A program made the translations under genes and the position numbers. 64,000 bases of DNA from a virus: the IMG/VR virus record IMGVR_UViG_3300045988_119718, positions 160,001-224,000 of that record; one strand, 5' to 3'. The notes under the pieces are model-generated. The model was not told where the DNA came from, searched no databases, and was given only the letters and a program-made list of their open reading frames with translations. This document shows, piece by piece, positions 1 through 56,650 of the stretch (its first letter is position 1; each line of letters opens with the position of its first letter).

Positions 1-201
1 TCGCCTTTATACGCACCTGATTGAGATTCAGCATCAATATCACATTTAATAACCCTTACTGATTCTGGTGGAATAAAACTAAATGATGTTATACTATCAG
101 TGCTTTCAAACCTACTATCACTAGTTATTTGAGCTGTTGCGGGGCTAGCACTAAATACTACTACCCCCCCCCCGTATAGTTCCTTTTAAAGTTGTTGTCA
201 T
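1..201 (-). pseudogene. 5' portion of a gene running off the window start, with its frame interrupted 9 codons after the start by a G10 homopolymer (C10 on the + strand). Candidate phase-variable or homopolymer-miscalled structural gene
   Basis: GGAGGA-N6-ATG sits at 199-201 on the minus strand. The current frame reads MTTTLKGTIRGGGSSI-stop. Deleting one G opens the frame through to position 1 (at least 67 codons, ...VVVFSASPATAQITSDSRFESTDSITSFSFIPPESVRVIKCDIDAESQSGAYKG). Confidence 0.35.
164..173. repeat. C10/G10 homopolymeric tract
   Basis: Ten consecutive C on the + strand in a genome that is otherwise very AT-rich, lying inside the 5' end of a minus-strand ORF. Confidence 0.9.
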
Positions 202-341
202 AATGATTCCTCCTTTATTATTTATCTATATTTCAATTCTAATAATTCTTTAAAGTCATTACTTCTATAAAGAGTACCAATTACTAAAATAAATGAAATC
301 ATAGCTTTCCAAATAATAGTTTCCATATTACTTCATCCTTT

Positions 342-9600: not shown

Positions 9601-12600
9601 TATCCTCAGGCAATGGCACAGACATATTTTCATCCAATGGTCTTGGTTGATAGATAAATGTAGTATCAAAATTATTAGCATGCCTACGCTGATCTAATAT
9701 CCATTTCTTTAGTTTAGGTATATCTGCTTTAAAGTTAAATCCTTTAACGTACAATATTTTACCTGTTGTATCGATTATAGTATCATCTACACCAGAGTAT
9801 AAATATGCTAAAGCATTTAAATATGTAAAGAGATATGCTACATTAAATTGCTTATATGGAATAATAGAAGGCACTGATACTTTTACCTTATTTTCCTTAA
9901 ATACATCATCAAAGAAAATATTATAGAAATAAGCAATTTTTAAACTCATTTCTGCTATATCTAAGACATAGTTTATACCAAAATATTTAGTTCTCTCATA
10001 GTTAAATTCTTTAGCTAGTATTTGTTCCTTTACTTTAATATGATTCTTATTTTCATCATCATCAAATCCTACACCATCCCAATACTTATCAGCTAATGTA
10101 GTTTCATCATACGGAAGTAAATTAGTTCTTTTAATAATATTCTTATTAAAGAAAGTATCTTCTATAGGAACACCTACAAACTTCAAATCTATATCTTTCT
10201 TATAATCTTCTGTATAAGTTTTATATACATATCTTTCATTATCAAAATATATAAAATGGAAATTTATATTGCTATACTTTAGTATATCTTTAGAATTTAA
10301 GAATGATAAATGCCCATCAAATATATCATAAGTAGATTCATCTATAATATTATTATTCTCATCAGTAATAAACATTAACCATCCATTGTTATCATAATTA
10401 TCGAATGGGTATGGTATCTCAATCTGAACTTTATTATTTATATCAGTACTCTTTATCGTTTTAACTTCTTCTTTGATAAGATTCGTTCTATCATTGATGT
10501 ATTTATTATTATAAACAAATAAAATATCTATAGAATCGTTGTTAGTAAATATTTCATCAGGTATAGTAATTTCATCATTTGTAAGTTCAAATTTAGTTAC
10601 TACAGATGAATAGTTATTGCTAAAATTATGGAATACTATAGCACTTTGTTTAGTTTCTACATATGATTTAAATGGTATTTTTATTTTATATGTATTAGTA
10701 TTCTCTTTAGCTGCAATAGTTTCTCTTTTAATTTTCAAAGCAGTATTTGTAGTATTATTCATTACATAGGTTATATTGATACAATCTTTTTTACTAGGTA
10801 ATCTATTAAGATTCGTAATAGTCAAAGTTTTAGTAGCAGCATCAATATTATACTCATTAGATCTCAAGTACTTACCAGTTATATCTACAATTACATTATT
10901 ATTCATTTCAAAATAATCATTTGCTATATTTATATCTTTGAATTCACTTTGTTTATCTTTAGCAACTTCTATTCTTTGCTTACTACAAATAATATTAGAA
11001 GTATCTGGGCTGAATACATATGTTATAGTAACTTTCTGACCTTTTTGTAAACCAATAGCTTGGTCTTTAAGAGTGAGAGTATTATTAAATATATCATATA
11101 ATTCAGTGGATAAGTATTCTTTGTTTGAACGAAGTTTAGGATATGCCTTGTATCCTAAAGCAAAGAATTTTTTAAATGGAGGATTTAATTTAAAAGTAAC
11201 TTGGAAATTCTCAGTAGCAGTAATTTCTTCAGTACTTTCATTTATATAGATTCTATTATAAATAGAATTTTCAGAATAAATAAAGAATACTTTTATAACA
11301 GTATTATCATTAATAACTACATTATTATTGAGAGTAACAAGACCTTCATTAATAGTATAATCTGTAGAAGGAATAATAGATATTCTATTATCAGTACTAT
11401 CAGATTTGGTTATTAATACTTCATTTCCTCTTTCAAAGTATTTATCAAAAGGAAAATCTATAGAGAATTCTCTTTTAGCTTCTTTAGTAGATTCAGAATC
11501 ATTATCTATAAGCAAGCTTTCTCTTTGTTCATCTAATTTAACTATATTATCTTTATTATAAATATAGATTATAGTAGCAATAGAATCTTGTGGTATATCT
11601 TCTAATACTATTCTATTCTTAGATAAATCTATAGTATATCTAGTAAGCTCCTTAGTATTAATAAGTATATCACCATCTATACAAATCATTATCTGATTTC
11701 CATCAGTAAGATATGTAGGAGTTGGTAATTTCTTTAATTTTATAATATTAGTATCTAATACATCTGCTTCTTCTGTACTAATAATATATCCATTTTCTGT
11801 ATCAATATAAGGAGTTATATCTTCTTTATTATAGTAGAAATCAAATATTACATCTTTCTGTTTTACACCAGCTTTAGTTATGGTAATTTGTTTCTTATCA
11901 GAAGAGATAGTATAGTCTGTATCTTTAGTAAGAATAGCATTACCATAAACTACCTTCATAATATTATTCTGAAGATAATCGTCAAAAGGCTTATTATTAT
12001 ACTTAGGATAAGGAATATCAAAAGTAGAATTATTTAATCCTTTTCTGGTAAAATTAATTACAACAGAAGTATTATCTTTGCCTAAAGACATTGCATAATC
12101 CCATTCTTTAGGAGAAAGGTTATTAACTATTTCTTTAGATTTACGAGTTTGAATATCAGTTTCTACTAATCTACTATTTTCAATAGAATACCATTTATTA
12201 GTAGCTTCATTATAGAATAAATCTAAATTGATATCATAATATTCTATTTCAATATTATTTTTATCATTAATAGACAACTTATAATAGTTTTCTTTAACTA
12301 AAGAACTAGCATCATCATTATCGCCAGAAGTTACTACTTTATCTTCGGTAATAATATATGCATTATCAGAAGAATCATTGGTAAGTTTATAAATAGTAGT
12401 TGTAGTGGTACCATTCTGTTTTTTATCCTCTATAGGTACATTTATAGCTGTATCCAGATTGCTAGCTATATCGGATATAGTAACTTTAGATATACTACCA
12501 TCACTACCATTTAAATAAGCTATACCATCTTTAACTGTTAGAGTATACGTTCTAGTAAACTCTCTCTTTACTCTATCATGGAAAACAGTATCATTTAATT

Positions 12601-29253: not shown

Positions 29254-29491
29254 AATAAACTCTCCTTTGCATAAAAACACTTATGAAAAAAGCCTTTTAT
29301 TCTAAAGTGATTATAATTTTATATATCTATTTTCTATAAATAACGCATAGAAGATTTTCTATATGTCCGGAAAATTAACAAAGGTTTTTAAACTGGAATA
29401 GTTCAAAAGTGTAATAGACTTCTACAACTTTATAAACTATTCTTTACTGAAGAAGTGTAAAACTTTTATTTTTATTGAAAGGAGAAAACTT

Positions 29492-29596
29492 TATGAACTC
29501 TATTATTGAAAAAAGTATATATGCTATTTTACTATTTCTCTGGAGTATTATTATCTACGATATTATTTCTGGTAATATTATTGAAGAACTTTTATA
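29492..29596 (+). CDS. Possible 34-aa hydrophobic peptide
   Basis: GAAAGGAGAAAACTTT-ATG. MNSIIEKSIYAILLFLWSIIIYDIISGNIIEELL is one TM-like helix. Confidence 0.25.
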
Positions 29597-29699
29597 AACT
29601 TTCTTAACTTCTATAACTTTATTGGAGTTTTTAACTATTAGGTTGATTCTAGGAAAGGATTTGTGCGACTGAAAGGAGCAACAAAACTTTCCGCCATTA

Positions 29700-29765
29700 A
29701 AAATGGGTTCTAACCCCCGTGAGGGGGTGGTGATTGTAGATTCCTACCCCCTGGAGGTAGACTAG
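29700..29765 (+). other. GC-rich structured element (two adjacent hairpins) in an AT-rich background
   Basis: CCCCC-gtga-GGGGG and CTACC-ccctgga-GGTAG. No tRNA cloverleaf could be built. Confidence 0.3.
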
Positions 29766-29811
29766 CTTTTAAACTTTTACCAAGTTTTATACTTTATAAA
29801 CTTTTTTAATT

Positions 29812-29837
29812 ACCATCTTCGGTATATACCGAAGATG
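29812..29837. terminator. 26-nt perfect palindrome CCATCTTCGGTATATACCGAAGATGG, candidate terminator for the 29470-29840 plus-strand unit
   Basis: Perfect self-complement with TATA centre, followed by TTATATTCTTT. Confidence 0.4.
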
Positions 29838-30233
29838 GGTTATATTCTTTAAAAACTGTATTTTTAGAAAGAATTCTTAATATATCAATACACTTATATT
29901 GAATTAAGGTTTAGAACTCTTATATTAAAAAATGCAGTGTTATATTTCTATTATATTGGATAGGTTTAGAACAGTATTATTTTGAAAAATACTTATAAAC
30001 TTGTTTTTATTGGTATTTTATTTACACTTCTTAATTGAAGAGGTTTTATAACTCTTTTCAATTAAAAATAAAATTATAAACTCGTAGTTTATAAAGTTTA
30101 GAAAAAGTTTATAATTATAGTATTTTTTCAATAAATTCTTTTTTGTTATTATTTAATAATTCATGTACATTTTCGTAATGAAATTTTTTTGACTACTTTT
30201 ATAGTTTGTATTCTTTTTTCTTTCCCTCTTTTT

Positions 30234-30280
30234 GGAGGGAAAGGGGGATGGGGGTTCTAGGGGGTAGGGGGGGGAAGGGA
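30234..30280. repeat. G-rich tract (GGAGGGAAAGGGGGATGGGGGTTCTAGGGGGTAGGGGGGGGAAGGG), G-quadruplex candidate
   Basis: G runs of 5, 5, 5 and 8 within 45 nt, flanked by mirror-image pyrimidine runs (TTTCCCTCTTTTT / CCTTTTTCTCCCTTTC). Confidence 0.8.
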
Positions 30281-30689
30281 ACCTTTTTCTCCCTTTCTTT
30301 TTTCAACTTCATAAAAATGTATAGATTCTTTTCTATCTTTATAAGTTGTATTTCAATGTATTCTAATAGAAATATGGCTATTCAGTAGTAAAAAATAAAA
30401 CGATTTTTCTTATAACTTCAGTGTAAAAACAAGGGTATGAGATTGATTCTCATACCCATATCTTACCTCGTATATTGCTTTCATACAAAAAATGCTATAT
30501 CTCAAAATATAGTATCGTATTCCTATTAAAAATAATAGTCATAGGAGCATGGTTTAAAAATACAACATTACATACTTCCTATAGAAAAATGATTTTTTCA
30601 TGGATTTTTACCTAAATATCAATAATTTCTGTCTAAATGCGAATCATTCGCATTTGTTAGAAAAAGTTTATAATTATAAACTGAAAAAA

Positions 30690-30940
30690 TCGCTAATTTT
30701 TTAGTTAAAAATTAAAAATCAACTAACATACCCTTTTTTCGCTATTTTCGTATTCCTATTAGTTTTAATGGAAATATGACTTTCTCATACCTTGCTAAAA
30801 ATTTAGTTAAAATTGAAAAACCAATTAACATACACTTTTTTAGCCATATTCGTATTCCCATTGGTTCTAATGGAAATACGACTTTTCAATTTTTTCTAAA
30901 AATTTAGTTAAAATTGAAATACCAATTAACATGTGGTCAC
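30690..30940. repeat. Tandem direct repeats of ~105 bp (2.4 copies)
   Basis: AAAAATTTAGTTAAAATTGAAA(A/T)ACCAATTAACAT... occurs at ~30796 and ~30899, with a degenerate copy at ~30700. Each unit contains TTCGTATTCC(T/C)ATT(A/G)GTT..AATGGAAATA. Confidence 0.75.
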
Positions 30941-31022
30941 TACGAAATTATAAACAAAAGTTTATAATTAGTTTATAATTTATTTTTAAAGAAAATAAAA
31001 AACATGATAAAAGACAGCAGAA

Positions 31023-31049
31023 ACCCAGTACAGGATAAACCTGTACTGA
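31023..31049 (-). terminator. Hairpin downstream of the 1448-aa gene
   Basis: CAGTACAGG-ataaa-CCTGTACTG, followed on the minus strand by GGTTTCTGCTGTCTTTTATC. Confidence 0.4.
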
Positions 31050-31096
31050 GTATTCACGCTATCTTCAGTTGGTATACTATAATGTAGGTAAAAATA

Positions 31097-34000
31097 TTAA
31101 TCATGAAGATTATCTACATTAGTAAGGTTATTCCACTTTATACCAAGTTTTTCCTTACACTGTCTAGATAATTCCATAAGTACTTTGTTCAATGAACCAC
31201 TACTAATGATAGAAGCTGTCATACGAGCATTAACCGATGCTGAAGTTAATAAAGCATCTATTGGTTCATCAGGTCTAAAATCAGTATATGGTTCTTTACC
31301 TTTAGGCATAATATCTTTTACTACACCTTTGATTGCAGTGTTGTAAGTCAGCTTATCACCAACGCCCATCTTATCTTCACACTTGATGTAGAAGCAGAAC
31401 ATTACACCTTTTTCCAAGTTCTTGAATTTGCCTTCTGGTAATAACTTTTCTGTAGAAGGTACTGATTCATTAATTTCTATATCTGTTACTCCGTTATCTT
31501 TAAGATATTTCTTTTCTTTCTTTATAGAATTTTCATACTTAGAAACTATCTTCTTTAATGATGGAGATAATTCATCTAATTCACAAGTTCTAAATATTTT
31601 AATATCTTGAAGAGTACCAGTAATCTTAGAATGAACTTGAATTCTACCAAAGTCTGTAGCTAATTCTAATTCATCATCAGAAATATTCTTCATTAAAGTA
31701 TTAGCTTCATCATCAGTAAATGCATTCTGGAAGATTATTAATGGAGAACCTTCTTCTATAGGTTTACCTTTTTCAGCTAAGAAGAATACATTAGAACCAG
31801 CATCTAAAGAACATGTTTTTTCTACACAATAGAATGAAGTAAGAGCATCTGAAATACGTTCATCTATAATAGAAGAATCTTCATATGCTTCATCTGTACA
31901 CATTATAGCTATTTTAGCCATAGTACCAATGTTAAATGCAACGTTTTTATTATCAGCGTTATGCCCTATAGAGGGACTGAACGAAGTTGGGTCATATGCT
32001 AAGATATCATTATACTTTAAGGTTTGACCTTTCTTTACAAAAGGTTTAAGTTTAACTGTTACATAGAAACCACCATCAGAGTTCTTCTGTGTTTTCTCTC
32101 TTAAATCTACAGAATGCTTGGATTTATTACCGTCTTTATCTACTTCTTCAAAGATAATAAAGTCATCAGTAATATTTAAAACTTTTCCTTTTACTCCTTT
32201 AAATTTATAAGAAAAAATATTAGAAGTAAAGTAAGGTAATGCCTCATCCATGCCATAAGTAATAAAATTCGGAGATGAAGATTTAACTCTCATAATATGC
32301 TTAGTAGTCTGAATATAGCCCATTGCAGTACGAATTGGGTCATCATGTGTAGTAGCATAAGGAGCCATAGCTTCATAAACAGACATACCATTCAATGTAT
32401 TCAATTTAGATTTATCATTACTTACTTTAAGTATACCTCTGCCATCAGCTATGGAAGAATTAATAGTAGCCTGTCTAGTAATACCTACATTACCAGCAAA
32501 CCCAGTAGACATAGATAAGATACCTAACATGGAATCGTCATATACACGTTTATCTAATGTATAAGCTCTATCAGCATTCATACCAGATAAGCCTTTGAAT
32601 GAGTATGTATTAATAGCTTCAGCTTCTAATAATGGAGAAGATACCGAAAGATCAGATATACCAGGGTCTTTCATAACTGCATCTATAAGAGCAGACTGTT
32701 TAATGGTAAACTTAACTCCTCTACCAGTTCTCTTCGATTTATTAGCATATTGACCATATGCATTAGCAATAGCTTGATATAAATAACCAGCTAATATTTC
32801 ATTAGAACGTAATCTATTACCAGAGATATCTGCATGCTTATTATAAGAAGTAGAAGCTAATAAGCTACTAGCATAAGCTAATGCTTCTATATAATCGTAT
32901 GGAATATCGTACTTCTTGCAAATATCAATAGTCATAGGATCAAATTCGCAATCATAGAAGTTATCAAAACCATCAGCTTTAATTCTACCACCAAATTCAT
33001 CTAAGATATCTAACCACATATTTTTTGTGTTGATATCTTTAATAGAGAATCTAGATAAATCAGTTTTAGCTAATCCTGCCATTAATAATGAATCTTCTGG
33101 CTTCTCATCATTATAAACTAAATATCCATCACTAAATCTAATTACAGATTCTGTTTCAGTTACCTTAGGTCTAGTATCAGAGAATCTGTATTTAATCTTA
33201 GCTTTATCCATAGACTTCTGTAAACCTTCAGAAAAAGCCATAAGAATAATAACTGGAATTTTAGTATTCATGATAGATGCTTGAGAGTAAGAAAGTTTAT
33301 TAGATGGTTTAGCTAAAGCATAAGTTTCTGCAAATACTTTATCTTTAGAAGCTAAGAATTTACCAATAGTATAAGCTGCATTTTCTTTATTAGAATAGAT
33401 AGCTTTTTTAGTTTTACTATCATACCCAATTAAGATATCAGTTTTTTCATTAAATTTTTTATCTACAGGAAGTTTCTTTAATGCATCATAGTCAAAAGCT
33501 ATATAACTTCCATCAGCTGTAGTAATTTTAGAGTATAAAGCACCTAAGTCTTTAAATTCTATCGGCATATCATACTTGGAAAGAATAAAAGTATTATCAC
33601 CGATATAAACTTTAACTTTAGAATCTGTGTCTTTTAAGTTCTTTAAAGCTTTAGTAAGTTTAGATACACCTTTAGTAGACTTAGTACCACCAGAAGGATT
33701 AACTCTTGAAATAAATATTTTATGATAAGAGGTAACTATCTGAGTTGTATCCTCTTCTGTTTTAATTATAGGAAGTAAAAGAATCTGTCCAGCTATAGTT
33801 TTAGTATTTCCTCTTAATTTCATAAATCTATGATTTATAAATTTAGGAATATCTATAGCTATATTTGATCTAGTACCATTAATATCTTCTAATTGTACTC
33901 TTAAAGTATAAATATAATCTTCATTAGTAGATTCATCTGTCATTTCCATACTAGCAACACATAATGGCCTAGACTTATTTCTAAGAGATTTAAATATAGC

Positions 34001-35443
34001 AATAATATCTTCATCTATATCATAGGATTTATTAAAGTCTAAAGCTGTTACATCTTTCCATTCTTCATTAATAGAATCAATGGGAATAGTTTCAGGCTTT
34101 AATTCTCTTTTCTTAGTATAGTAATTCTTTAATACATCTCCTACTTTTTTACCATGGATTACAGTTTTATCAAAATCTTTATCTAACTGCTCCATTCTCT
34201 TTTTTCTAGCTTCAGTTATTTTAGTAATAGGAGGATTATCTAAATCTAATATTACATCCTTGATATAATCTTCATCATTATCTACTGTAATTTCTTTTAA
34301 TTCTTTTTCTTGAGATTCTTCTTCTTGTTCTTCCTCGGATTTTTCTTTAGGAGTCTCATCATCGTTGAATCCATCGTCATCTAAATCATCTGGATTAAAA
34401 GAAGCTTTAGCTGAAATAGAATCAGAATTATTTTTCTTTTTAGATTTAGTAGCACCAAATCTATTATCCATAACTATTGAATCAGAAGAATCTGGATTAA
34501 TCTCAGCATCATCTGCATTAGATAAGTCATTCTTTATTAATTTTTTAGTAAAGAATACAAATCTAATTAAATCTTTAATATCGAAATTAGAGAAGTCTAC
34601 TTTGAAGTATGCATTTTTAGAAGCGATAATAAAGTCTATACCACTCCAATAATTAGATATAATCTGTCTTTGTCTAACTAATCTATAAATCATAGAAAAT
34701 GGGTTTATAGAATTATTAAAATCAAATATATCGCAGCCTTTAGGAATCCATGATTCTACAGGAATGATACAGGTCTTTCTAGAATAATATTGATTAATTC
34801 TAGAATCATCTAAGTATCTAGTGATAATATGATGAAGTAAGTCTAATCCTCTATCTCTTTGATAAACTTTATTATTTTTCAAGAATATATTTATATAATG
34901 GGATAAATCTACGATAAGATTCTTTCTATTATATTGCTTTAGATTAACAAAAGTATTTCTAATAAATGGAACTTTAGCTTTAACTTTACTATAGATTTCA
35001 AATATTTCTTTTTGGTTTTTTATTCTTTCATTATAAAGAAGATTTCTAAATATACTTGGATAGTTTTGATTCATTCTAAAATCTTCATTTAATATTTCAT
35101 CTACTTTATCAGGAAAGAATACTCTACTATCATCTAAGTCATAATATAAATCATTATTATCACCATCAAATTTAGACTCTAACATAGTCTTCATAAACGG
35201 TTCATTTATAGTAGAAGCTTCATTAGTGAAAAATGTGAAATCCTTTTCTGTATAATATGAAATAAAAGTATTTCTATTAACAAGAAACTTATTATTATTT
35301 AAAAAGCTAATAGTATCATCAATATCCTTGGTTAATATAAACAAAGCACTATTATGATAAATATCATTTTGCGTATATGCTGGGTAAAATAGTTTTGTTT
35401 TCATTAACCTTAAAGGAATGAGTTTTTCTATCGTATATGGCAT
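31097..35443 (-). CDS. Multisubunit-RNA-polymerase beta-subunit homolog (C-terminal conserved regions) with a long unique N-terminal extension
   Basis: SPLLE...[31 protein letters not shown] aligns to RpoB NPLSE..[43 protein letters not shown]...[16 protein letters not shown] aligns to [52 protein letters not shown]...ARM aligns to [25 protein letters not shown]...SRMN. The three blocks occur in the same order as in RpoB. Confidence 0.6.
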   Translation of the reverse strand: [1448 protein letters not shown]

Positions 35444-35587
35444 GGCTATTTTCCTTTCTTTACAAAAAGTAAAATTTTAATTAAGTGTTTCTCTATTCAC
35501 ATTAGAATTAATGGGTATAGAAATTAAAAGTTTATATTCCTATTAACTTACATAGTAATAGAAATAGTTTAGAAAGGGTTATAAAGT

Positions 35588-35728
35588 ATGGAAAAACAAG
35601 AGTTCTTAGAAATAGTTAAGGGTTTCTCTAGAGAAGATTTTAAGAAATACCTATATAGAGAAATTAATAAAAAAAGAAAATTATTAGTTGTTATTAAAAG
35701 AGTAACTAAATCTAATAATAAAAAATAA
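35588..35728 (+). CDS. Possible small basic protein (46 aa)
   Basis: GAAAGGGTTATAAAGT-ATG; MEKQEFLEIVKGFSREDFKKYLYREINKKRKLLVVIKRVTKSNNKK. Confidence 0.3.
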   Translation: MEKQEFLEIVKGFSREDFKKYLYREINKKRKLLVVIKRVTKSNNKK

Positions 35729-53770: not shown

Positions 53771-56650
53771 ATGTCTGAATCATTAATAAATATTAACCCT
53801 AATGATTTACAAGATCCAAAGGATTCTTTAACTATACAAGAAGAGACTCAATCTCCTCTTACTAGTAATATATATGAAATAGCTTCTTATGTAGACACAT
53901 TAAAAAATAAGTATTTTGATGGTATTCCTACTGATACTTTAGCTATGGGTTTGTTTGGCTATATATCAGAATTAGGAACAAACATACTTGAAAATACTGC
54001 TATAATGTCTGCTGAGTATGCTAATGAAGCAGTGCCTACTCAAGCTAAATTTGAACGAAATGTATTATGTCATGCATTATCTTTAGGTATTAATAAGATT
54101 AGAGCTACACCAGCTAAAATGACTATCAATATTGCTATACCAGAAGATAGATTAATCGAAAACATGGTAGATAATGAATTTATTTTAGATAAGAGTATTG
54201 ATATTAATATAGGTGTAACTAATGGTTCTTATACATATCACTTAGATCATGATATAAAAATTAGAAGAAACAAACTCCCTAATGGTAAATGGATATATAC
54301 AGCTATGTATTTAATGTATACTCATTATGATATGGGTGATGTAAATACTAATGAAATATCTGATATTACTAATCCATATTTACCAGCTATAGGAACTATT
54401 AGTATTAGTAATACTAATATGATTGTTTTAACTACAAATATTAGGCAAACTAATCATTATGAAATTTATGAAAAAATATTAGTAGATAATCCATTAGAAA
54501 ATAAATCATTATCATTTACTTTTACAGACCAATTAGCATATTTCTATGTAGAAGTAGTAGAGCATACTACAGGTGGAGATGTAACTCATTATTTACAATG
54601 CTTATATGATGGATTATATAATACCGGTAGTGATTGGGAATACTGTAATTATCAATATATTGATGAATCTACAATTAGAATTGTATTTAATAGAGACTCA
54701 TATCAGCCTAGAGAAAACGCTGATGTAACTGTACATGTATTTACTACTAAAGGTAGTGAATGTAATTTCACATATAATAAGAACACAGTTTATGATTTAA
54801 CTTCTAGTAGATATTCATATAATAATATCTATATGGTAGTTATACCACAATCTAATTCAGAATATGGGGTAGATAAAAAATCAGTAGATGAATTAAAAGA
54901 AATGATTCCTAAGCAAATGCTTATGAGAAATAGTATAACCACATATACTGATTTAAATAATTTCTTTAACTCATTAAACACTGATAATATTAGATTGTAC
55001 TTTTTACAGAAGATTCATAACCAGATTCAAAGAATATTCTTTTGCTATATGCTATTGAAGGATGAGAATAATAATAATATTATTCCTACAAATACTTTAG
55101 ATGTAAAAGTAACAAGAGATATGTTTAGTAATATTAATAGAATAAATTATGTTCTACCAGCTGGTTCTTTATTCTATTTAGAGAATGGTGGTACTGAAGC
55201 TACTGGTTTACCATTAGGAAGCTCAGCTAATAATGAAGATTTAAAAGCTAAAGAGAATAATGGATTCTTATATATCAATCCATTTTTAACGGTTATAAAC
55301 AAAGAACCATTTGTATTAAATTATTATTTAAATATATTAAACTATTCTAAACTTGCTGATTTTGATTACATCAATGATGAATCAGAATTACAATTTATTT
55401 GTACTAGTACTACATCTAGCCCTATAGTAGTAGAGAAACCATTCTATCCAGAAACTGAGAGAGACTACTATACAATCAGCACTTTATTTACACAAAATAT
55501 TTCTACTGATTTTGATTTGGTTAGTACTGATGAGAATGGTCATATTATAAAGAATAATCTTAGAGTTATAGGTGTATTCTATAATAAAGATGAAGATGGT
55601 AATTATCAGCCATTTAGATACACCGAAGCAGAATTAGATGATGCTGATTATAGCTCAGTAGATTATTCATATAATTATAAATTTAGGCTTCATACTAATA
55701 ATATTATAAACAAAGATATTAAACTTTGTATAGATGATGGAATATATTATGTAGGAACTAGAACTAAAGCTATTACATATTTGCCTAATAATGTAAGATT
55801 TAAAATATTTATATTAGCTAAATTTGACCAGCAATATGGTTCTCTTAAAGCTAATAATAATGATGAAGATGATATTTCATATATAGTACCAGGATTATAT
55901 GAAGAAAAATACACATTGTGTAATATTTATGAAGTTAAGACTGGTTTAGATATGTTTATCGACTACACCAATATAATGGAATCTTATGCTAATTTATCTA
56001 GTGCTTCTAACGGAGATTTAGATTTCCATATAAAGAGAATGCCATTAGTTAGATACAGCTATTTCTGGAATTTTGGTATAGACCCAACTGAAGATTATTC
56101 TGACGGAATACAACCATACGGTATGAGAGATAGAGTAGATACGTTTATTCAATCTATTGATTATAGAAGAATTTATATTCAATCTGCATTATTATTACTT
56201 GAAGATAGTTTCGGTATTGATATGAAATTCTTTAATACATATGGGCCATCTAGGTTATACAATGTAGGATATGAAAAAGTTTCTATGCCAATAGATAGAA
56301 TTAATATATCTCTTAAATTTGAAGTTAAATATCAAACTTCAGCTGATAAGAATTGTGAAAATGATATTATAAATTATATTAAGACTTATATGGAAAATAT
56401 GAATTATATATCAGACTTGCATATACCAAATCTTATTACAGCAATAAAGAATAAGTTCTATAAACAAATAGTTTATATTAAATTCATTGGATTGAATGAT
56501 TATGGGTATATCTATCAAAGTATATATAAGAATAATGAAAACGATGATTATCTATACTCTACTACAGTTCCAGAATTTATTAATATAAATATAGCCAAAG
56601 ATTCTATAGGCAATGATATACCAGATATTCAAATAGAAGGAGTAGAATAA
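53771..56650 (+). CDS. Hypothetical structural protein (959 aa)
   Basis: RBS GAAAGGAGAAG; long ORF. Confidence 0.5.
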   Translation: MSESLININPNDLQDPKDSLTIQEETQSPLTSNIYEIASYVDTLKNKYFDGIPTDTLAMGLFGYISELGTNILENTAIMSAEYANEAVPTQAKFERNVLCHALSLGINKIRATPAKMTINIAIPEDRLIENMVDNEFILDKSIDINIGVTNGSYTYHLDHDIKIRRNKLPNGKWIYTAMYLMYTHYDMGDVNTNEISDITNPYLPAIGTISISNTNMIVLTTNIRQTNHYEIYEKILVDNPLENKSLSFTFTDQLAYFYVEVVEHTTGGDVTHYLQCLYDGLYNTGSDWEYCNYQYIDESTIRIVFNRDSYQPRENADVTVHVFTTKGSECNFTYNKNTVYDLTSSRYSYNNIYMVVIPQSNSEYGVDKKSVDELKEMIPKQMLMRNSITTYTDLNNFFNSLNTDNIRLYFLQKIHNQIQRIFFCYMLLKDENNNNIIPTNTLDVKVTRDMFSNINRINYVLPAGSLFYLENGGTEATGLPLGSSANNEDLKAKENNGFLYINPFLTVINKEPFVLNYYLNILNYSKLADFDYINDESELQFICTSTTSSPIVVEKPFYPETERDYYTISTLFTQNISTDFDLVSTDENGHIIKNNLRVIGVFYNKDEDGNYQPFRYTEAELDDADYSSVDYSYNYKFRLHTNNIINKDIKLCIDDGIYYVGTRTKAITYLPNNVRFKIFILAKFDQQYGSLKANNNDEDDISYIVPGLYEEKYTLCNIYEVKTGLDMFIDYTNIMESYANLSSASNGDLDFHIKRMPLVRYSYFWNFGIDPTEDYSDGIQPYGMRDRVDTFIQSIDYRRIYIQSALLLLEDSFGIDMKFFNTYGPSRLYNVGYEKVSMPIDRINISLKFEVKYQTSADKNCENDIINYIKTYMENMNYISDLHIPNLITAIKNKFYKQIVYIKFIGLNDYGYIYQSIYKNNENDDYLYSTTVPEFININIAKDSIGNDIPDIQIEGVE

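What the first reader, a model, noticed from the sequence alone, without database searches (positions are those of the whole stretch)
29281..31096. 1.8-kb gene-free hub with iterons, palindromes and tandem repeats
This is the largest non-coding stretch in the window, sitting between two leftward operons. It contains:
- at least 9 copies of the 9-mer TTATAAACT or its complement
- two copies of that 9-mer arranged as perfect palindromes (TTATAAACTcgtAGTTTATAA at ~30081; AGTTTATAATTATAAACT at ~30665)
- a direct doublet AGTTTATAATT-AGTTTATAATT at ~30960
- ~105-bp tandem repeats
- a G5/G5/G5/G8 tract
- several perfect hairpins (29812-29837, 30432-30456, 30644-30664)

This architecture is what replication origins (iterons plus an AT-rich region), centromere-like partition sites or packaging regions look like. 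It could also be the promoter cluster for the phage RNAP.
Basis: seen in the sequence. Interest (0 to 1): 0.75.

Follow-up and report, generated by a model that had tools for sequence, protein, structure and literature searches.

The report
Conserved non-coding repeat hub in gut jumbo phage
A 1.8-kb stretch with almost no genes in an uncultured human-gut giant phage carries eleven copies of a short DNA box, several hairpins and a rare G-rich block that are kept unchanged across many phage genomes, so it is functional DNA, most likely a cluster of small transcription cassettes rather than a proven replication origin.

Summary
Window 29254-31096 is the largest intergenic stretch, at 1843 bp. It holds 11 of the window's 15 TTATAAACT copies (P=1e-14), along with the palindromes, the doublet, 102-bp tandem repeats, hairpins and the only G-quadruplex motif in 64 kb.

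The window belongs to an uncultured AR9/PBS1-like jumbo phage (~255 kb) that is common in human gut metagenomes. Twelve genomes of this lineage carry the same hub. Among them the boxes (1/99 sites variable), the G-block (1/78) and the hairpins are far less variable than 4-fold sites (14.5%). The spacers evolve neutrally.

The hub sits in a hypervariable slot between RNAP beta and a thymidylate-kinase-like gene. Relatives carry unrelated ORFs there, but one sister clade keeps the G-block, inverted.

Rearrangements between strains have their junctions at boxes. Box orientation matches convergent intrinsic terminators, and one box precedes a conserved 34-aa ORF.

My best reading (confidence 0.4) is a PeSL-like array of box-plus-stem-loop regulatory cassettes that drive short, mostly non-coding transcripts.

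A replication origin (0.2) is not excluded: the most AT-rich 200 bp lies next to the central boxes. However, the boxes match neither the AR9-type early nor late promoters found elsewhere. The GC skew turns at 35 kb, not in the hub. Function remains untested.

The parts
29254..29420 (-). Upstream/leader region of the thymidylate-kinase-like operon (gene start ATG 29253). Contains a 58-nt invariant block at 29287-29344.
   Evidence: SD and ATG seen; gene called at this start in public contigs; invariant block among 12 genomes.
29430..29438 (+). Box 1 (TTATAAACT), 55 nt upstream of the micro-ORF start. Embedded in a 69-nt invariant block (29399-29467).
29493..29597 (+). 34-aa hydrophobic micro-ORF (MNSIIEKSIYAILLFLWSIIIYDIISGNIIEELL) with an AAGGAG ribosome-binding site. 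Its stop codon lies inside box 2.
   Evidence: Sequence. Intact in the 7 genomes retrieved by the pattern search, including L006; population changes are about 3 synonymous and 2 non-synonymous. Called as a gene in L172.
29592..29600 (+). Box 2. A cassette junction in the window/L006 rearrangement.
29640..29765 (+). Candidate structured RNA. It has a long stem-loop presenting an invariant GAAAGGAG loop, followed by a G/C hairpin (ACCCCC-GTGA-GGGGGT / CTACCCCC).
   Evidence: Fold z = -4.5; the + strand is 9 kcal/mol more stable than the - strand. The stem is kept in three sequence variants, and variable sites fall in linkers and loops. 6/126 sites segregate. No Rfam family.
29794..29802 (+). Box 3, 10 nt upstream of the palindromic hairpin. 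A cassette junction.
29813..29838 (.). Perfect 26-bp palindrome / 11-bp-stem hairpin (CCATCTTCGGTATATACCGAAGATGG).
   Evidence: Invariant in 12 genomes (0/26). Present twice in L006.
29993..30001 (+). Box 4, at the 3' end of a 53-nt invariant block (29947-29999).
29974..30173 (.). The most AT-rich 200 bp of the window (15.5% GC). It spans the central box cluster and a neutrally evolving spacer.
30074..30114 (.). Central box cluster: box 5 (+, 30074), box 6 (-, 30086) and box 7 (-, 30106). Boxes 5 and 6 form the 21-bp palindrome TTATAAACTcgtAGTTTATAA.
30218..30299 (+). Pyrimidine-purine-pyrimidine block holding the G5/G5/G5/G8 quadruplex motif (30237-30274). On the + strand it folds into two strong hairpins followed by a T-run, so it is terminator-like.
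   Evidence: 1/78 sites segregate. The core G5-A(T)-G5-TTYTA-G5-(T)A-G5 is shared with the sister clade L002/3/5/19 in the same slot, in inverted orientation.
30425..30457 (-). Intrinsic terminator on the - strand (GGGTATGAGA-loop-TCTCATACCC followed by TTGTTTTT).
   Evidence: Invariant block 30423-30456.
30644..30664 (.). Hairpin AAATGCGAA-TCA-TTCGCATTT next to the box palindrome.
   Evidence: A compensatory G-C to A-T change is seen in L006.
30665..30682 (.). Boxes 8 (-) and 9 (+), forming the 18-bp palindrome AGTTTATAATTATAAACT.
   Evidence: Invariant in the 12 genomes but absent in L006.
30700..30932 (.). 102-bp tandem repeats (2.3 copies). Each carries a ~13-bp-stem hairpin (CGTATTCCCATTAG..CTAATGGAAATACG). 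Degenerate hairpin copies lie at ~30346 and ~30515.
   Evidence: They evolve at the neutral rate (15% segregating), yet stem pairing is kept through G-C/G-T/A-T changes.
30959..30980 (-). Boxes 10 and 11 as a direct doublet (AGTTTATAATT x2), inside a 72-nt invariant block.
   Evidence: Part of a ~40-55-nt segment missing in L006.
31027..31049 (-). Hairpin just downstream of the RNAP beta stop codon; the likely terminator of that gene.

Best explanation
The hub is the lineage-specific, mostly non-coding cargo of a hypervariable slot. The slot lies between two conserved genes of an uncultured AR9/PBS1-like gut jumbo phage: RNAP beta and a thymidylate-kinase-like gene.

The hub is built from short cassettes. 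Each is bounded by a ~20-30-bp box (core TTATAAACT, usually followed by a T-run) and often by a stem-loop. In this it resembles the composite promoter/terminator 'PeSL' cassettes of the hyperplastic regions of T4-like phages.

The boxes are most likely protein-recognition sites that start or control transcription of short units:
- rightward units in the left half, containing the 34-aa micro-ORF and a ~125-nt structured RNA, which end at the 29813-38 hairpin and the G-rich block;
- leftward units in the right half, which end at the 30433-57 terminator.

The same boxes serve as homology patches at which cassettes are duplicated, lost or moved.

Shown here: the anatomy, the confinement to this locus, purifying selection on boxes, hairpins and G-block, neutral spacers, and rearrangement junctions at boxes.

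Inferred, not shown: that the boxes are promoters or operators, that the units are transcribed, and which polymerase or factor reads the boxes.
For: 1. **Selection.** Among 12 genomes, box positions vary at 1/99 sites. The rest of the hub varies at 167/1744 (Fisher P=7e-4) and 4-fold sites of RNAP beta at 66/455. The G-block varies at 1/78, the hairpin at 0/26 and the spacers at 8-21%.
2. **Footprint.** Constraint covers the 20 nt upstream of each box plus the box itself (about 1-3% variable). The 10 nt downstream are near neutral (9%). Each box sits in a 30-70-nt invariant block.
3. **Orientation and terminators.** Terminator-like sites number 8 against 0.5 expected. They lie on the + strand at 29813-38 and 30266-96 and on the - strand at 30457-33. 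Every one has same-strand boxes upstream. In L006, ten of eleven boxes point towards the G-block.
4. **A real downstream gene.** Box 1 lies 55 nt upstream of a conserved micro-ORF with a ribosome-binding site.
5. **Rearrangements.** The window reads ORF-box-RNA-box-X-box. L006 reads ORF-box-X-box-RNA-box-X-box, so all junctions are at boxes.
6. **A hypervariable slot.** Relatives at 50-72% RNAP identity carry unrelated opposite-strand ORFs there, with no trace of them in the hub.
7. **Precedent.** PeSLs are repeated promoter-plus-stem-loop motifs, often with polyG/polyC stems. They lie in hyperplastic regions and mediate modular shuffling (PMC2839356, PMC4122927).
Against: - The boxes match no promoter class recognisable in this phage. 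AR9-type early (WATATATTATARTWGTG) and late (AACA-N6-TA) motifs sit upstream of real genes elsewhere. The hub contains them only at the chance level, and sigma-70-like sites are not enriched.
- A promoter class would be expected at several loci, but the boxes are confined to this one.
- Box 3 is only 10 nt from a hairpin, an awkward place for a transcription start.
- The conserved upstream flanks differ between boxes, so they may be the 3' parts of the preceding units rather than promoter elements.
- Only one cassette holds an ORF.
- There are no expression data.
- Between the window and L006, the hub as a whole diverges about as fast as 4-fold sites: 14.5% against 12%.
Confidence: 0.4

Rival explanations
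1. Replication origin. The boxes would be iterons bound by a phage initiator, and the AT-rich 29974-30173 segment would be the unwinding element. In a transcription-primed variant, a box-driven rightward transcript runs into the G-rich block. There an R-loop or G-quadruplex stalls it and leaves a primer, as in T4 oriF/oriG, T7, ColE1 or the mitochondrial LSP-CSBII (comparison from general knowledge).
For: - The box array is specific to one locus.
- The boxes are under purifying selection.
- The most AT-rich 120-200 bp of the window abuts the three central boxes.
- The window's only G4 motif lies ~130 nt further on the same strand. It is nearly invariant and shared with a sister clade.
- A lineage-specific box sequence is what co-evolution with an initiator would give.
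Against: - Box spacing is irregular and wide: 162, 202, 199, 81, 12, 20, 559, 9, 285 and 11 nt.
- Five boxes are missing and others are duplicated in L006.
- Relatives have no box array in the slot.
- The neighbours are RNAP beta and nucleotide-metabolism genes, not a recognisable initiator.
- The cumulative GC-skew minimum is at ~35 kb, at the divergent strand switch. This is weak evidence, because skew tracks gene orientation throughout the window.
- The terminators, the micro-ORF and the unique conserved flanks are not needed by this model.
Confidence: 0.2
2. Selfish or neutral recombination scar. The boxes would simply be the homology patches of short duplicating cassettes, and the hub would be decaying DNA without a function for the phage.
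For: - Cassette duplication in L006 with junctions at boxes.
- A 22-nt identical patch at 30098 and 30657, which suggests conversion.
- A hairpin-loop inversion in L021.
- Spacers and the 102-bp repeats evolve at the neutral rate.
- Overall window/L006 divergence is about equal to that of 4-fold sites.
Against: - Variation in boxes, their upstream flanks, the G-block and the hairpins is strongly depleted across 12 genomes, while the adjacent spacers vary freely.
- The hub is kept at 1832-1845 bp in all 12 genomes.
- The G-block is retained in a clade with ~65% RNAP identity.
Confidence: 0.12
3. Nucleoprotein assembly site of another kind: a partition (centromere-like) site or a packaging (pac) site read by a box-binding protein.
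For: - Repeated boxes in both orientations at a single locus.
- One 227-kb contig (L022) ends exactly in the G-block.
- Several contigs of the sister clade end within ~500 nt before their G-block.
Against: - The hub is internal, at variable distances from contig ends, in at least 12 long contigs.
- Contig breaks at G-rich or homopolymer sequence, or at a strain-variable slot, are expected assembly artefacts.
- No terminase or partition genes are adjacent.
- Many unrelated viral contigs also end in G-rich runs.
Confidence: 0.06
4. Anti-defence non-coding RNAs. An example would be a solitary CRISPR-repeat mimic (RNA anti-CRISPR) at 29707-29741, or antitoxin-like repeats.
For: - Weak full-length Rfam alignments to CRISPR repeat families (DR37 at 19.5 bits, DR32 at 18 bits), sharing the CCCCGUGAGGGG hairpin.
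- RNA anti-CRISPRs of this type are known in phages (PMC10651486, abstract seen).
Against: - The scores are far below the gathering thresholds of 40 and 48 bits.
- Two scans of 185,579 species-representative genomes found no matching array; only Herpetosiphon was hit, and that is the source of the DR32 family itself.
- L006 changes positions that would matter for repeat mimicry.
Confidence: 0.05

Closest known systems
PeSL cassettes (promoter-early stem-loop) of the hyperplastic regions of T4-like phages (Arbiol et al. 2010, PMC2839356; Comeau et al. 2014, PMC4122927)
   Same: - A short repeated AT-rich box is paired with stem-loops, some with polyG/polyC stems.
- The elements are concentrated in a variable region between conserved core genes.
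- Indels and duplications between close relatives have their junctions at the motif.
   Different: - The box is not sigma-70-like and matches neither promoter class seen elsewhere in this phage.
- All copies sit in one 1.8-kb locus rather than many.
- Only one cassette carries an ORF, of 34 aa.
- Promoter and terminator activity are untested.
Iteron-type replication origins (lambda ori, P4 ori/crr, plasmid iterons) and transcription-primed origins (T4 oriF/oriG, T7, ColE1, mitochondrial LSP-CSBII); named from general knowledge
   Same: A single locus holds repeated boxes next to the most AT-rich DNA. A G-rich, quadruplex-capable block lies downstream on the same strand.
   Different: - Box spacing is wide and irregular.
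- The box complement differs between sister strains.
- No initiator gene is adjacent.
- There is no positional conservation in relatives.
- There is no replication evidence.
AR9 early and late promoters (Lavysh et al. 2017, PMC5312081)
   Same: - The phage is a distant AR9/PBS1 relative.
- It carries AR9-like early (ATATATTAT-6N-G) and late (AACA-6N-TA) motifs upstream of genes.
- The hub boxes are likewise extended, AT-rich and highly conserved.
   Different: The box sequence TTATAAACT(T)n is neither consensus. The hub holds those consensus motifs only at the chance level.
Herpesvirus lytic origins (oriLyt); from general knowledge
   Same: Both are kilobase-sized ORF-poor regions that combine repeats, AT-rich palindromes, G-rich tracts and non-coding transcription.
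   Different: There is no homology and the virus realm is different in practice. The resemblance is architectural only and untested.

Membership tests
AR9-type early (virion RNAP) promoter | Consensus AAATATATATTAT-(6N)-G (PMC5312081) | tested here: not met
   The pattern [AT]ATATATTAT-6N-[GA] occurs at 2382, 19485, 25025 and 63659 (all intergenic and gene-oriented) and at 55741. None lies in the hub.
AR9-type late (non-virion RNAP) promoter | AACA-(6N)-TA/G | tested here: not met
   There are 3 matches in the hub (30005-, 30428+, 30953+) against roughly 4 expected by composition. They are in different registers relative to the boxes.
Sigma-70-type promoter | TTGACA-16..18-TATAAT above chance | tested here: not met
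   14 sites found against 12.4 +/- 3.6 in shuffles.
Iteron replication origin | Three or more copies of a repeated binding box at a single locus | tested here: met
   11 of 15 copies lie in 1.84 kb, P=1.4e-14. None occurs in a further 17 kb.
Iteron replication origin | Adjacent AT-rich unwinding region | tested here: met
   29974-30173 is the most AT-rich 200 bp of the window, at 15.5% GC. Other AT minima of the window are ordinary promoter regions, so this feature is not specific to origins.
Iteron replication origin | Tightly clustered, regularly phased repeats | tested here: not met
   Spacings are 162, 202, 199, 81, 12, 20, 559, 9, 285 and 11 nt, in mixed orientation.
Iteron replication origin | Replication starts there (marker frequency, skew inflection) | tested here: inconclusive
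   The cumulative GC-skew minimum is at ~35 kb, not in the hub. However, skew follows gene orientation throughout the window. Read-depth data are not available with these tools.
PeSL-like regulatory cassette | Repeated composite of a promoter-like box and a stem-loop, in a variable region between core genes | tested here: met
   Box followed by a hairpin at 29794/29813-38 and at 30665(-)/30664-44. The G/C hairpin and the G-block add further stem-loops. The slot is variable among relatives.
PeSL-like regulatory cassette | Rearrangements between close relatives have junctions at the motif | tested here: met
   The ~290-bp segment 29793-30082 is present twice in L006, and every junction is at a TTTTATAAAC box.
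PeSL-like regulatory cassette | The box is a functional promoter and the stem-loop a functional terminator | not testable with these tools
   No expression data. The box matches no known consensus.
Described RNA families (Rfam 15) | Match at the gathering score | tested here: not met
   No match at gathering threshold in the 64-kb window. Only sub-threshold hits in the hub.
RNA anti-CRISPR (solitary repeat unit) | Close mimic of a CRISPR repeat of the host | tested here: inconclusive
   DR37 scores 19.5 bits against a gathering score of 40; DR32 scores 18 against 48. Two pattern scans of species-representative genomes found no matching array. The host is unknown.
Packaging site / genome terminus | Fixed physical end at the site | tested here: inconclusive
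   The hub is internal in at least 12 long contigs, at varying offsets from the ends. One contig (L022) ends in the G-block. Read-level data are not available.
G-quadruplex motif | Four runs of G>=3 with loops of 1-7 nt | tested here: met
   30237-30264 is the only such motif on either strand of the window. It is near-invariant and shared with the L002/3/5/19 clade. Folding in vivo was not testable.

The most novel reading that the evidence does not exclude
The hub could be the replication origin, or a recombination-initiation site, of a jumbo phage that works through transcription. A box-driven transcript from the AT-rich centre would run into the conserved G5-G5-G5-G5+ block. There an RNA/DNA quadruplex or R-loop would stop the phage's multisubunit polymerase and leave a primer or a nick. 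The retention of this G-block in a sister clade, inverted but in the same slot, would mark it as the ancient core of the element. It could also explain why the slot is a hot spot of cargo turnover.
Probability: 0.15. Interest if true: 0.75.

Novelty: new variant of a known kind. Interest (0 to 1): 0.45.

Why it matters
Jumbo phages with their own multisubunit RNA polymerases have no mapped replication origins. Their non-coding DNA is also almost unexplored.

This hub is a clear case of non-coding phage DNA under purifying selection in a phage that is common in human gut metagenomes. The neighbouring 166-aa protein is on record in 176 blocks of the public assembly collection.

The hub offers three concrete things:
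- a defined set of cis-elements (a ~20-30-bp box, a perfect palindrome and a quadruplex-capable block) that can be tested for protein binding, promoter or terminator activity and origin function;
- a PeSL-like mechanism of cassette shuffling outside the T4-like phages;
- a G-rich block that is conserved across clades in an otherwise ~28% GC genome, and at which several assemblies break.

If the function turns out to be only local regulation of a few small transcripts, the finding is of modest interest.

Tried and rejected
- **Phage database searches.** Megablast and blastn of the hub against 50,697 phage records gave no match.
- **tRNA/tmRNA and Rfam.** Nothing at threshold.
- **Pseudogene remnants.** The ORFs that fill the slot in relatives give no tblastn signal in the hub or elsewhere in the window.
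- **Hub derived from the RNAP beta upstream region.** Local alignment is no better than shuffles: 33 against a mean of 28.6 and a maximum of 41. The ATATAA(A)CTTTTAA element conserved upstream of RNAP beta in three clades resembles the box, but one such match is expected by chance.
- **Genome-wide box distribution.** A 22-mer and the 26-bp palindrome found only a chance coding hit (L015) and the L006 contig.
- **Solitary CRISPR repeat idea.** Sub-threshold Rfam hits and two empty genome scans.
- **Distribution of the G-block.** The strict pattern found only the L003 contig.
- **G-block as a conserved terminator.** It is predicted as a terminator in the window but not in L003, where the T-tail is too short. 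What is conserved is the G-run pattern.
- **Strand of the 102-bp-repeat hairpins, judged from wobble pairs.** Four positions favour the + strand and one the - strand, which is not decisive.
- **Homology search of the 34-aa peptide.** BLASTP against a second 34-aa peptide of the window gave no alignment.
- **Weak self-similarity of the hub** (~60% identity). It is not separable from AT-rich background.
Full report
**What the window is**

The 1448-aa ORF at 31097-35443 (- strand) is a multisubunit RNA-polymerase beta subunit (PHROG E=1e-136; Pfam Rpb2_6). Its best matches among cultured phages are Listeria, Staphylococcus and Bacillus jumbo phages of the PBS1/AR9 type, at only ~30% identity.

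The window has ~28% GC, no tRNA genes and no Rfam family at threshold.

Sequences upstream of genes carry motifs like the two AR9 promoter classes described in PMC5312081:
- WATATATTATARTWGTG at 2382, 19485, 25025 and 63659;
- AACA-N6-TA upstream of, among others, a virion-protein gene and the RNAP beta gene.

Public assemblies show a ~252-265-kb phage that is frequent in human gut metagenomes. One contig, ERZ27229725:k119_143398, is identical to the window across the hub.

**Check of the observation**

The non-coding stretch is 29254-31096, 1843 bp. It is the largest in the window.

TTATAAACT occurs 15 times against 4.3 expected, and 11 copies lie here. The binomial P is 1.4e-14, and it is the most hub-enriched 9-mer. 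The other four copies are inside ORFs. None occurs in ~17 kb beyond the window ends.

The following are all present:
- the two palindromes and the doublet;
- a 102-bp tandem repeat (2.3 copies, 85% matches);
- the G5/G5/G5/G8 tract;
- the three hairpins.

The G tract is the only canonical quadruplex motif on either strand of the 64 kb.

One correction is needed. A 34-aa hydrophobic ORF with an AAGGAG site lies at 29493-29597 on the + strand. It was found intact in the 7 genomes retrieved by a pattern search, including the divergent L006, and it was called as a gene in one public contig.

**Comparative picture**

Protein-anchored searches gave three kinds of relatives.

1. *Same lineage.* Twelve genomes including the window carry the hub at 1832-1845 bp and 95-100% identity. 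All eleven boxes are in place in 11 of the 12; L175 has lost one.
2. *Sister strain L006* (RNAP 95% aa). Its hub is 2184 bp and ~85% identical. Ten boxes point rightward and one leftward. Boxes 8-11 are absent. A ~290-bp segment is present twice.
3. *More distant clades* (RNAP 50-72% aa). The slot between RNAP beta and the thymidylate-kinase-like gene holds unrelated ORFs on the opposite strand. These clades have no box array, and no protein-level trace of those ORFs remains in the hub.

The hub is therefore lineage-specific cargo of a hypervariable slot.

**Selection**

Among the 12 genomes, 66 of 455 four-fold sites of RNAP beta segregate (14.5%). Within the hub:

| Element | Segregating sites |
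|---|---|
| Five spacers | 8-21% |
| 102-bp repeats | 15% |
| Boxes | 1/99 (Fisher P=7e-4 against the rest of the hub) |
| G-rich block | 1/78 |
| 26-bp palindrome | 0/26 |
| Minus-strand terminator | 1/33 |
| Structured element | 6/126 |

Constraint extends ~20 nt upstream of each box but not downstream. Each box lies in a 30-70-nt invariant block whose sequence differs from box to box.

The hub is thus a mosaic of constrained islands in neutral DNA. That explains why its overall divergence from L006 (14.5%) is close to that of four-fold sites (12%).

Compensatory changes keep two stems: the 30644-64 hairpin (GCGAA/TTCGC to GCAAA/TTTGC) and the repeat hairpins (G-C, G-T, A-T).

**Anatomy that bears on mechanism**

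Terminator-like sites are enriched, at 8 against 0.5 expected. They lie on the + strand at 29813-38 and 30266-96, and on the - strand at 30457-33. The two halves therefore converge on ~30300-30430.

Boxes in the left half point right. Those in the right half mostly point left. In L006 nearly all boxes point towards the G-block.

Box 1 lies 55 nt upstream of the micro-ORF. Box 2 overlaps its stop codon and precedes a ~125-nt element. That element:
- folds far better than shuffles (z=-4.5), and better on the + strand;
- keeps its main stem in three sequence variants;
- varies in loops and linkers.

Box 3 and box 8 are each followed within ~10 nt by a hairpin.

Comparing the window with L006 gives this order of cassettes:
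- window: ORF-box-RNA-box-X-box;
- L006: ORF-box-X-box-RNA-box-X-box.

All junctions fall at boxes.

**The G-block**

The block at 30218-30299 is a pyrimidine-purine-pyrimidine arrangement. On the + strand it folds into two strong hairpins before a T-run (-44 kcal/mol, against -24 for the other strand).

Its core, G5-A(T)-G5-TTYTA-G5-(T)A-G5, recurs in clade L002/L003/L005/L019 (RNAP ~65% aa). There it lies in the same slot, ~140 nt upstream of the kinase-like gene, and is the only G4 motif in 24 kb. Relative to the flanking genes it is on the opposite strand.

In L003 it is not predicted as a terminator. What is conserved is the G-run pattern itself.

One window-type contig (L022) ends in the block. 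Six contigs of the sister clade end 0-500 nt before theirs. This is probably a sequencing or assembly effect of extreme composition, or of strain variation in the slot. Unrelated viral contigs also often end in G-runs.

**Interpretation**

The closest known analogue is the PeSL cassette of T4-like phages. PeSLs are repeated promoter-plus-stem-loop motifs, often with polyG/polyC stems. They lie in hyperplastic regions between core genes and act as both regulatory signals and recombination patches (PMC2839356, PMC4122927).

I favour this reading at confidence 0.4. The hub would be an array of such cassettes that drive short, mostly non-coding transcripts closed by intrinsic terminators.

Its main weaknesses are these:
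- the box matches none of the promoter classes visible in this phage;
- the box is confined to one locus;
- nothing is known about expression.

A replication origin (0.2) remains possible. It would use the same facts differently: a locus-unique set of boxes, the most AT-rich 200 bp of the window at the central boxes, and a conserved G4 block downstream. Against it stand the irregular spacing, the turnover of boxes between sister strains, the lack of any equivalent in relatives, the absence of an initiator gene nearby, and a skew minimum at 35 kb.

The other readings score lower:
- Pure junk is contradicted by the selection data.
- A packaging terminus is contradicted by the many contigs that span the hub.
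- A CRISPR-repeat mimic is unsupported.

**Verdict**

The hub is a new variant of a known kind of phage regulatory or recombination region. It is of moderate interest, with a smaller chance of being something more fundamental.

Noticed in passing
window 164-173 (- strand ORF starting ~199): A run of ten G (C10 on the + strand) sits 10 codons into an ORF that has a good ribosome-binding site. With G10 the frame stops after 16 codons. With G9 it stays open to the window edge. This could be phase variation, slippage or a homopolymer assembly error.
   Followed up: no
window 2382, 19485, 25025, 63659 (-); 1784, 35489, 45202, 51959, 57336, 59825: AR9-like early (WATATATTATARTWGTG) and late (AACA-N6-TA) promoter motifs lie upstream of genes. 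A late-type motif ~45 nt upstream of RNAP beta is conserved in all relatives examined. This suggests an AR9-like transcription scheme and possibly uracil-containing DNA.
   Followed up: partly
window 35444-35600 and L003/L039 ~9850-9930: A block TATTACTATnTAAGTT-N7-ATATAA(A)CTTTTAA is conserved ~95 nt upstream of RNAP beta across clades with 59-66% RNAP identity. It lies between RNAP beta and a divergent 46-aa gene. It resembles the hub box, but the link is unproven.
   Followed up: partly
L001, L004, L017, L018, L020, L023 (sister clade) and L022: Seven contigs end in, or within ~500 nt before, the G-rich block of the slot, while long contigs span it. The cause may be a coverage drop at extreme composition, strain variation, or a real DNA end.
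   Followed up: partly
L003 17130-17375: In the sister clade the G-block is preceded by a ~250-nt C-rich stretch that stands out from the AT-rich genome. It has no Rfam match and folds no better than shuffles (z=0).
   Followed up: partly
L208 2130-2215 (IMGVR_UViG_3300026549_000895, 240 kb, 32% GC): A non-coding stretch contains CCCCGCGCCAGCGGGG, which I recall (not checked here) as the hairpin of type I-E CRISPR repeats. It is followed by G5AG5-CTAT-G5AG5 and a T-run. This could be an RNA anti-CRISPR candidate, and a second example of the G-block motif.
   Followed up: no
L182 (ERZ28568765 scaffold_3078, 10.2 kb): Phage genes identical to the window's left end are joined to MatE, GHMP-kinase and GntR genes. 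This is either a chimeric contig or a junction with host DNA that could hint at the host.
   Followed up: no
window 30345-30370 versus L021: A ~25-bp hairpin-loop inversion distinguishes L021 from the other genomes.
   Followed up: no
window ~220-324 (- strand): A second 34-aa hydrophobic ORF (METIIWKAMISFILVIGTLYRSNDFKELLELKYR) is called as a gene in public contigs. By eye it resembles the hub micro-ORF at its N-terminus, but BLASTP finds no alignment.
   Followed up: partly
L179 9155-9992: In one genome the thymidylate-kinase-like gene next to the hub is split into 98-aa and 170-aa ORFs. Between the window and L006 this gene is also unusually divergent: 30% at 4-fold sites, against 12% for its neighbours.
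   Followed up: no
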